Shown here: positions 3,307 to 3,582 of the stretch, piece after piece
Layout: each line of letters starts with the position of its first letter
How positions within the stretch are numbered: the stretch's first letter is position 1
Origin: Eledone cirrhosa
Lineage: Eukaryota
DNA: 26,655 nt
Direction of reading: 5' to 3'
NCBI GenBank assembly: GCA_964016885.1
Contig: CAXHJY010000870.1
Span: forward strand, 1 to 26,655
The notes under the pieces: model-generated
What the model saw: only the letters and a program-made list of their open reading frames with translations
Databases searched by the model: none
Told to the model about the DNA's origin: nothing
Translations under genes and position numbers: made by a program

Positions 3307-3582
3307 CGATATTAATAAATGGAAACTATATTTATAAAACCATATTTGTTTCATTATACATATTTCAGGGACACCACATTAAATTATGGTATGCCTTCAT
3401 CAGACAAAATACAGTATATAACAGTTTTACAAATAAGCTTTGACGTACCCTATTAAAATGCAACCATTGTTTTTGGAAGTCATCCGGATAGTATATCTAC
3501 TCCAAATACTTGTCGAGTGCTTTATATCAGTTATAAAAATATTTACTTGTTGTATCCCAACAATTTTAAATAGAACTTTTGC
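3307..3582 (-). mobile_element. ~276-bp hammerhead-bearing element (family A) flanked by (TA)n; Penelope pseudo-LTR or retrozyme-like
   Basis: Termini CGATATT... and ...CTTTTGC are shared with the copies at 186-332 and 430-577 (both ends) and 993-1176 (left end); internal hammerhead. Confidence 0.75.
3349..3409 (-). ncRNA. Minimal type I hammerhead ribozyme
   Basis: UUUUGU-CUGAUGA-AGG-c-AUACCA-loop-UGGUGU-c-CCU-GAAA-UAUGUA-UA^AUGAAA; stem II covaries with the copy at 1034-1096. Confidence 0.85.

What the first reader, a model, noticed from the sequence alone, without database searches (positions are those of the whole stretch)
3307..3582. ~276-bp unit with fixed termini and a covarying hammerhead (candidate retrozyme-like monomer)
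Seen: the same two ends abut (TA)n in this copy and in the rearranged 186-332/430-577 pair, and 993-1176 shares the left end. Between the two ribozyme-containing copies, stem II changes AAG/CUU to AGG/CCU (compensatory) and GCACC/GGUGU to AUACC/GGUGU (pairing kept), while the core is invariant. Inference: selection on RNA structure; a fixed 5' end is more like a defined non-autonomous unit or solo pseudo-LTR than random 5' truncation.
Basis: partly seen in the sequence, partly recalled or inferred. Interest (0 to 1): 0.75.

Follow-up and report, generated by a model that had tools for sequence, protein, structure and literature searches.

The report
Two-armed Penelope-type hammerhead insertion
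This 276-base piece is not a complete element but two back-to-back fragments of an abundant repeat that carries a predicted self-cutting RNA, likely written into a TA microsatellite from both sides of a DNA break by a Penelope-type retrotransposon enzyme.

Summary
The hammerhead is real: a minus-strand type I motif with pairing-preserving changes between two copies and a self-complementary loop 3. The "monomer with fixed termini" is not. Reads laid on the unit show that arm B (3492-3582) normally follows the ribozyme's downstream end (8,780 reads in one run), as in 455-577. The unit's own junction is nearly absent (1-3 reads), and the family continues past 3491. So 3307-3582 is the rearranged copy: two head-to-head arms. 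Both outer ends lie downstream of the ribozyme, 91 nt apart on the RNA, and the inner joins vary between copies. This is the known Penelope-like footprint (inverted truncated copy, one-sided tail). Eleven of 17 inverted-repeat spans in the window have one long and one short end. The likely mechanism is priming from both DNA ends at two fixed RNA sites; it is inferred, not shown. Whether the parent is a small retrozyme or a full element is open. This scan found the same pattern before, in other families on other pieces of this genome.

The parts
3307..3491 (-). Arm A: 5'-truncated ribozyme-bearing arm; outer end at 3307 is the short end (site 1), 48 nt downstream of the predicted cut
   Evidence: family continues beyond 3491 in reads
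3349..3409 (-). Type I hammerhead: helix I 3409-3404 with 3354-3349; CUGAUGA 3403-3397; helix II of 3 bp + C-C mismatch + 5 or more bp; GAAA 3366-3363; 2-bp helix III with self-complementary loop; predicted cut 3355/3354
   Evidence: cleavage not tested
3491..3492 (.). Inner head-to-head junction at a 2-nt microhomology (4 of 5 letters alike over 3488-3492)
   Evidence: junction letters against 470-497; family's own continuation
3492..3582 (+). Arm B: the 91-nt extension (tail) that normally follows site 1 on the ribozyme strand; outer end at 3582 is the long end (site 2); contains a predicted hairpin with an AC-rich loop
   Evidence: (opposite-strand joints)
3263..3306 (.). Left (TA)n target tract
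3583..3692 (.). Right (TA)n target tract
993..1176 (-). Second arm-A copy, 82% identical, short-ended, no arm B; hammerhead core at 1089; stops at the same inner letter as the unit
430..577 (+). Two-armed copy of the same family: about 33 nt of inverted short arm, then a long arm that keeps the family's normal junction into B; no ribozyme
   Evidence: junction matches thousands of reads
186..332 (-). Mirror duplicate of 430-577 (B part identical); not an independent copy

Best explanation
3307-3582 is a head-to-head pair of fragments of an abundant hammerhead-bearing repeat inside a (TA)n tract, likely made when a Penelope-type reverse transcriptase/endonuclease cut the tract and copied the element's RNA from both DNA ends. 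SHOWN: on the ribozyme strand the family reads upstream sequence - hammerhead - 48 nt - site 1 - 91-nt extension B - site 2; here the part up to site 1 is inverted relative to B; both outer ends meet (TA)n; the inner join is a short microhomology that differs among copies. INFERRED: (1) a transcript of the family binds the protein of an autonomous Penelope-like element; (2) the GIY-YIG endonuclease cuts both strands of (TA)n; (3) one 3' end starts cDNA at site 2 and the other at site 1, where an internal TATA may help annealing; (4) the first cDNA stops after 91 nt and the second after 185 nt, and they join by microhomology. Here the arms tile the RNA without overlap, like L1 twin priming; in 430-577 they overlap and give a hairpin. 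The hammerhead is predicted to cut only as a dimer or with protein help, so this lone copy is probably inert. Identity as a rearranged Penelope-associated fragment is about 0.9; the double-priming step about 0.65-0.7. The parent is more likely a small non-coding retrozyme-type unit longer than 276 nt (about 0.65) than the end of a coding element (about 0.35).
For:: ten listed opposite-strand joints between 3302-3317 and 3491-3511 sum to 8,780 reads in X9, and five of those ten rows also have contigs in X1 (three in X4); loose ends before 3491 read as the reverse complement of the left end in X1, X4 and X9; depth at 3495-3502 is 1-3 (X9) and 0-2 (X10) against 165 and 143 at 3489-3491. Other two-arm joins with different break points: 3367 to 3511 (one X1 contig, 3 X9 reads), 3435 to 3546 (77 X9 reads, 2 starts); single X1 contigs turning at 3478 into ribozyme-strand 3' sequence and at 3484 into the ribozyme core. 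Short ends are also common: mean depth 7,481 over the TA tract at 3290-3300 in X9; 11 of 17 inverted-repeat spans in the window have one end flush with (TA)n and the other 25-82 nt short (9 after merging duplicates; background chance of a TA run 25-95 nt away is 0.217 per end). Literature: inverted 5'-truncated copy plus one-sided tail (PMC3846280, PMC8557442, passages); a Penelope-clade protein cleaves and extends both strands of AT-rich DNA and starts at two RNA sites whose spacing is the tail (PMC11167929, parts 1-2 of 4).
Against: No autonomous element was found or linked: no genome is held and I saw no Penelope ORF by eye in six-frame translations of 22 window islands. The 91-nt extension is longer than the published 30-40 bp tail. 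Site 2 rests on two independent window copies and one 22-read row, because the tool skipped 3574-3600; whether the family continues beyond 3582 is untested. Both ribozyme copies in the window stop at the same inner letter although they are 82% identical, which the model explains only as a microhomology hot spot. 6 of 17 spans do not show the one-long-one-short pattern: 2 have both ends flush, 4 are cross-copy matches or not scorable; 152-613 and 4372-5153 have long ends on both outer sides. Read counts come from reduced-representation libraries and fragmentary contigs and are not copy numbers. Some reads, probably from one locus, carry pair-breaking changes at 3374 and 3389. Target-site duplications cannot be read in (TA)n.
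Confidence: 0.68

Rival explanations
1. Ordinary single-primed Penelope-type insertion rearranged later at the DNA level: arm A was inverted between the outer (TA)n and the internal TATA, or the middle of a longer self-primed fold-back was deleted at the microhomology.
For: (TA)n is its own reverse complement; long palindromes are unstable (established knowledge); the window holds mirror duplications (152-613, 4372-5153); self-priming is the published proposal for inverted Penelope arms (PMC3846280, passages).
Against: Only 4-5 nt of homology at the internal TATA. Several different inner joins occur in reads. Inversion or deletion would not by itself give one short and one long end in 11 of 17 spans. 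Fold-back self-priming predicts a palindrome at the join, and these arms share only 2-5 letters.
Confidence: 0.22
2. One reading: a defined 276-nt non-autonomous monomer or solo pseudo-LTR with fixed 5' and 3' ends, transcribed as a unit of about 280 nt.
For: Both ends recur next to (TA)n in the window; the length lies in the retrozyme range of 150-450 bp (PMC7229834, part 2 of 6).
Against: The unit's inner junction is in 1-3 reads against thousands for the opposite orientation, and the family continues beyond 3491. The ends are not at the predicted cut site. The whole unit does not fold better than shuffles (z = -0.72).
Confidence: 0.03
3. A TA-targeting MITE or other DNA transposon with terminal inverted repeats that captured a hammerhead.
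For: TA target and many hairpin-shaped repeats in the window.
Against: The two ends of the unit are unrelated sequences. No simple hairpin among the 17 spans has both arms flush with TA; the 2 spans with both ends flush are compound.
Confidence: 0.02
4. Assembly or library chimera: the inner junction was made by misassembly or fold-back in a TA-rich region.
For: The junction is nearly absent from independent reads; the window is rich in palindromes.
Against: A single-locus junction is expected to be rare in reduced-representation reads of other individuals; one X9 read runs through 3502; arm B differs from the other window copy at 6 of 95 positions, so it is not a duplicated read.
Confidence: 0.05

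Closest known systems
Insertions of endonuclease-bearing Penelope-like elements (PMC3846280 and PMC8557442, passages; PMC4209133, parts 1-2 of 4)
   Same: Type I hammerhead with weak helix III and palindromic loop 3 near the end; 5' truncation; adjacent inverted truncated copy; an extension on one end only; bias for AT-rich microsatellites.
   Different: No ORF seen; extension of 91 nt against 30-40 bp; here the second arm is only the extension and the arms do not overlap; pair 10.1-11.1 is A-U rather than the usual G-C.
PAc (Poseidon of Anolis carolinensis) in vitro system (PMC11167929, parts 1-2 of 4; supplements not seen)
   Same: Two fixed reverse-transcription start points downstream of a hammerhead; AT-rich target; both strands cleaved and extended; an AC-rich stem-loop near the downstream site.
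   Different: In PAc the sites lie inside the ORF, within the stem-loop; here no frame stays open through the extension and site 2 lies about 10 nt past the predicted stem-loop. The parts read do not derive two-armed insertions from the two sites.
Metazoan non-LTR retrozymes (PMC7229834, part 2 of 6 and passages; bioRxiv 10.64898/2026.07.22.740005, parts 1-3 of 5)
   Same: Non-coding, AT-rich, type I hammerhead of the dimer-dependent kind, very abundant; proposed to be Penelope-derived and Penelope-mobilised.
   Different: No tandem copy, monomer length or RNA is shown for this family; this locus is a truncated, rearranged insertion and not a monomer.
L1 twin priming and dual priming (PMC2837659, passages)
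   Same: Two opposed fragments of one RNA, the second primed internally by the other target strand, joined with little homology.
   Different: For L1 the internal site is variable and the first primer uses poly(A); here both sites appear fixed and the target is (TA)n. One RNA against two RNAs cannot be told apart.

Membership tests
Type I hammerhead ribozyme | Core CUGANGA / GAAA / UH with helices I-III in type I order | tested here: met
   two copies; 5 loci against 0.095 in shuffles
Type I hammerhead ribozyme | Compensatory variation in helices | tested here: inconclusive
   0.014 in a post hoc two-copy simulation; 47 of 48 cells paired and 8 of 16 pairs changed on both sides with a third motif of another family; read variants mostly compatible but unphased; R-scape not run
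Type I hammerhead ribozyme | Match to an Rfam hammerhead model | tested here: not met
Type I hammerhead ribozyme | Self-cleavage | not testable with these tools
   monomer active fold -1.7 against -12.9 kcal/mol minimum; loop 3 self-duplex -2.2
Penelope-like element insertion | Inverted 5'-truncated copy next to a direct copy | tested here: met
Penelope-like element insertion | Extension (tail) at one end only, 30-40 bp | tested here: inconclusive
   one-sided extension present but 91 nt long; long end thinly sampled
Penelope-like element insertion | AT-rich or microsatellite target | tested here: met
   all four window copies in (TA)n
Autonomous Penelope-like element | RT plus GIY-YIG ORF joined to this end sequence | tested here: inconclusive
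   none in the unit or seen by eye in window islands; upstream continuation known for about 30 letters only
Non-LTR retrozyme | Head-to-tail tandem units, each with a hammerhead | tested here: inconclusive
   none in the window; no such joint among those shown, but 65 joints were not shown and the unit's full length is unknown
Non-LTR retrozyme | This 276-nt stretch is a complete monomer | tested here: not met
Non-LTR retrozyme | Linear and circular monomer RNAs | not testable with these tools
   no run on record as RNA was offered
MITE / TIR transposon | Terminal inverted repeats at both ends | tested here: not met

The most novel reading that the evidence does not exclude
Penelope-type enzymes insert by priming from both cut DNA strands at two different fixed sites on one RNA, so that the inverted pseudo-LTR and the one-sided tail are two faces of one reaction. 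This locus is the limiting case that fold-back self-priming cannot make in one step: one arm is only the tail and the two cDNAs tile the RNA without overlap. The 91-nt spacing would then measure the RNA held between two enzyme subunits for a new, very abundant small ribozyme RNA family.
Probability: 0.45. Interest if true: 0.65.

Novelty: new member of a known kind. Interest (0 to 1): 0.38.

Why it matters
It corrects a misleading reading: fixed ends next to (TA)n here are two downstream start points, not the borders of a monomer. How Penelope-like elements make their inverted arms and one-sided tails is stated as open in the papers read (PMC8557442, PMC3846280, PMC11167929). A non-overlapping two-arm copy separates double priming from self-priming, and the purified Anolis protein makes that testable. 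The element itself is one more family in a genome full of such repeats.

Tried and rejected
No genome is held, so copies could not be collected or end positions plotted directly. Rfam: no hammerhead match; the miRNA hits are microsatellite hairpins below gathering score. Pattern scans found 0 loci in viral contigs and 0 in metagenome contigs. Earlier scan notes by sequence gave nothing for the unit, 455-580 or 993-1176, and nothing nearby. No RNA holder listed; run X4 covers the upstream part of arm A about 19-fold better than X1 relative to the downstream part (0.52 against 0.028), but its kind is not on record and I draw nothing on expression from it. The upstream continuation seen in reads has no convincing copy in the window (2 matches at 3 mismatches, 1.61 expected). 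No tRNA gene. Whole-unit folding is not better than shuffles; 76-nt hammerhead folds have z of -1.26 and -0.74. An RNA-editing reading of the unit's differences was considered and dropped: too few sites, and X4 shares the unit's letters at 3452 and 3469. Literature searches for a published double-priming model for Penelope elements and for cephalopod retrozymes (PMC13282606 has 0 mentions of hammerhead, ribozyme or retrozyme in its main text) found none; the library lacks most subscription papers, and supplements were not read.

Full report
Setting. The window is AT-rich animal-type DNA (32% GC) with 205 TA runs and many tandem arrays. No whole genome is held. The read tool labels its main holder only as organism A. 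Earlier scan notes call the genome cephalopod or octopus-type; I did not test that.

The hammerhead. On the minus strand the unit has a complete type I motif: helix I of 6 bp, CUGAUGA at 3403-3397, helix II of 3 bp, a C-C mismatch and 5 or more bp, GAAA at 3366-3363, a 2-bp helix III and a predicted cut between 3355 and 3354. The copy at 993-1176 is 82% identical and has the same motif. My descriptor finds 5 loci in the window against 0.095 on average in 200 shuffles. Five substitutions fall in helices I and II and all pairs survive; a neutral simulation gives this in 1,054 of 76,813 trials, while an unchanged core has probability 0.12. A third motif of another family at 5269 has the same helix II plan; over the three, 47 of 48 cells pair and 8 of 16 pairs change on both sides (the structure was read from these sequences, so this leans in its favour). 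In reads, the frequent helix variants are pair-compatible and the only listed core variant is N7, with 40 of 60 rows shown; one abundant read set in X9 carries pair-breaking changes. Rfam does not detect the motif. The monomeric active fold is about 11 kcal/mol above the minimum and loop 3 can pair with itself. This matches the dimer-dependent metazoan type described in PMC4209133 (parts 1-2 of 4 read) and PMC7229834 (part 2 of 6 and passages). Cleavage is untested.

The unit is a composite. Blast splits it into A (3307-3491, shared with 993-1176) and B (3492-3582, shared with 186-279 and 484-577). In 430-577, B follows the reverse complement of A's left end. Reads show that this is the family's normal order. 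Ten listed opposite-strand joints between 3302-3317 and 3491-3511 sum to 8,780 reads in run X9, five of these rows also have X1 contigs, and loose ends before 3491 read as A's left end inverted (15 joints shown, 65 not). The unit's own junction is nearly absent: depth beyond 3494 is 1-3 in X9 and 0-2 in X10, against 165 and 143 just before. That pair is also one event, since its B parts are identical.

The 5' side is not fixed. Reads that reach 3491-3492 continue into further non-TA family sequence (125 of 363 laid reads in X9, 109 of 304 in X10, 6 contigs in X1, 3 in X4; variants of the same continuation behind 3477 and 3479). Depth in X1 falls from 3.13 million at 3323-3333 to 87,285 at 3444-3454, and in X9 from about 25,900 to 549. 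Part of this fall is divergence between subfamilies, because loose ends behind 3367, 3383 and 3418 are variant family sequence; these depths are not copy numbers. Other two-arm joins have other break points: 3367 to 3511 and 3435 to 3546, and single contigs that turn at 3478 and 3484 into ribozyme-strand sequence. Against this, both ribozyme copies in the window stop at the same inner letter. Their subfamilies continue differently in reads, so I read this as a microhomology hot spot; that is an inference.

What is fixed. Both outer ends lie downstream of the ribozyme on the RNA: site 1 at 48 nt past the cut and site 2 a further 91 nt on. Short ends running into (TA)n are common in X9 (mean depth 7,481 at 3290-3300). 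Site 2 is thinly sampled: two independent window copies and one 22-read row, since 3574-3600 was skipped. The same geometry recurs across the window. Of 17 inverted-repeat spans, 11 have one outer end flush with (TA)n and the other 25-82 nt short of it; 2 compound spans have both ends flush; 4 are cross-copy matches or not scorable. The 11 reduce to 9 after merging duplicates, and the background chance of a TA run 25-95 nt away is 0.217 (post hoc). I ran this test after reading the one-long-one-short rule in earlier scan notes.

Mechanism. Endonuclease-bearing Penelope-like elements are known to leave an inverted 5'-truncated copy, a 30-40 bp tail on one end and a bias for microsatellites (PMC8557442, PMC3846280; passages). 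A purified Poseidon protein cleaves and extends both strands of AT-rich DNA and starts at two RNA sites whose spacing is the tail (PMC11167929, parts 1-2 of 4; supplements not seen). I therefore infer that each cut strand of (TA)n primed one cDNA, one at site 2 and one at site 1, and that the two cDNAs joined at a 2-nt microhomology. Here the arms tile the RNA without overlap, the geometry of L1 twin priming (PMC2837659, passages). The published self-priming proposal expects a palindrome at the join (PMC3846280), which 430-577 has and this unit lacks; later deletion or inversion remains a rival at about 0.2. One RNA or two cannot be told apart. No enzyme gene was found or linked (by eye).

Family membership. 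It works like a Penelope insertion and carries a Penelope/retrozyme-type hammerhead. It is not a complete retrozyme monomer. Whether its parent is a tandem retrozyme is untested: no tandem copy is in the window, the full unit is longer than 276 nt, and no run on record as RNA was offered. No reading frame stays open through the extension, which favours a non-coding parent. A 2026 preprint already argues that animal retrozymes are non-autonomous Penelope derivatives (10.64898/2026.07.22.740005, parts 1-3 of 5; supplements not seen).

Novelty. The element is a new member of a known kind, with a longer tail than published. I did not find the double-priming model for Penelope elements in six searches or in the parts of eight papers read; most subscription papers are outside the library. 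This scan has proposed the same model for other families in this genome; those notes are leads and not support. Interest 0.38; the bold reading has probability 0.45 and interest 0.65.

Noticed in passing
window 5179-5436 (-), core at 5269: Second hammerhead family between (TA)n tracts, unrelated outside the motif, with the same helix II plan (3 bp, C-C mismatch, 5 bp) and a perfectly self-complementary loop 3.
   Followed up: partly
window 5933-6343, core at +6158; related piece 20979-21130: Two-armed insertion with a U3-A8 core-variant hammerhead and a 61-nt one-sided extension.
   Followed up: partly
window 21139-21541, core at -21388: Two-armed insertion with a hammerhead that has an unpaired base before helix II, and a 56-nt extension.
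   Followed up: partly
window 25839-26047, cores at +25980 and -25970: Palindrome with hammerhead-like cores on both arms (weak helix II, missed by my descriptor) and a 64-nt extension.
   Followed up: partly
window 640-700 (-), core at 692: Hammerhead-like motif with a long helix II and one change in the GAAA core, read by eye, at the end of the 712-935/1198-1419 inverted repeat that encloses copy 993-1176.
   Followed up: no
window 152-613 and 4372-5153: Mirror pairs of two-armed hairpins with long ends on both outer sides; in 152-613 the B parts are identical. Not explained by a single double-primed event.
   Followed up: partly
window 4463-4578, 4949-5064, 5540-5900, 6359-6747, 19940-20171, 20266-20649: Further hairpin repeats with one end flush to (TA)n and one 25-78 nt extension; they look like MITEs but are asymmetric.
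   Followed up: partly
window 3354-3307 (-) continuing into B: An AUG lies directly after the predicted cut and opens a 30-codon frame in the family's normal order; may be chance.
   Followed up: no
window 17890-18460 (-): Frame resembling the C-terminus of an RTE-type LINE protein with zinc-finger-like motifs (label recalled, not searched).
   Followed up: no
window 1-146, 2334-2870, 3693-3770, 5644-5832, 7274-7474, 24279-24579: A SINE-like repeat in several copies, with a 68-bp part amplified 6 times at 2334-2742 and a 14-bp part about 20 times at 24297-24577.
   Followed up: no
window 10497-16082: 80-bp satellite, about 70 copies, about 95% identical.
   Followed up: no
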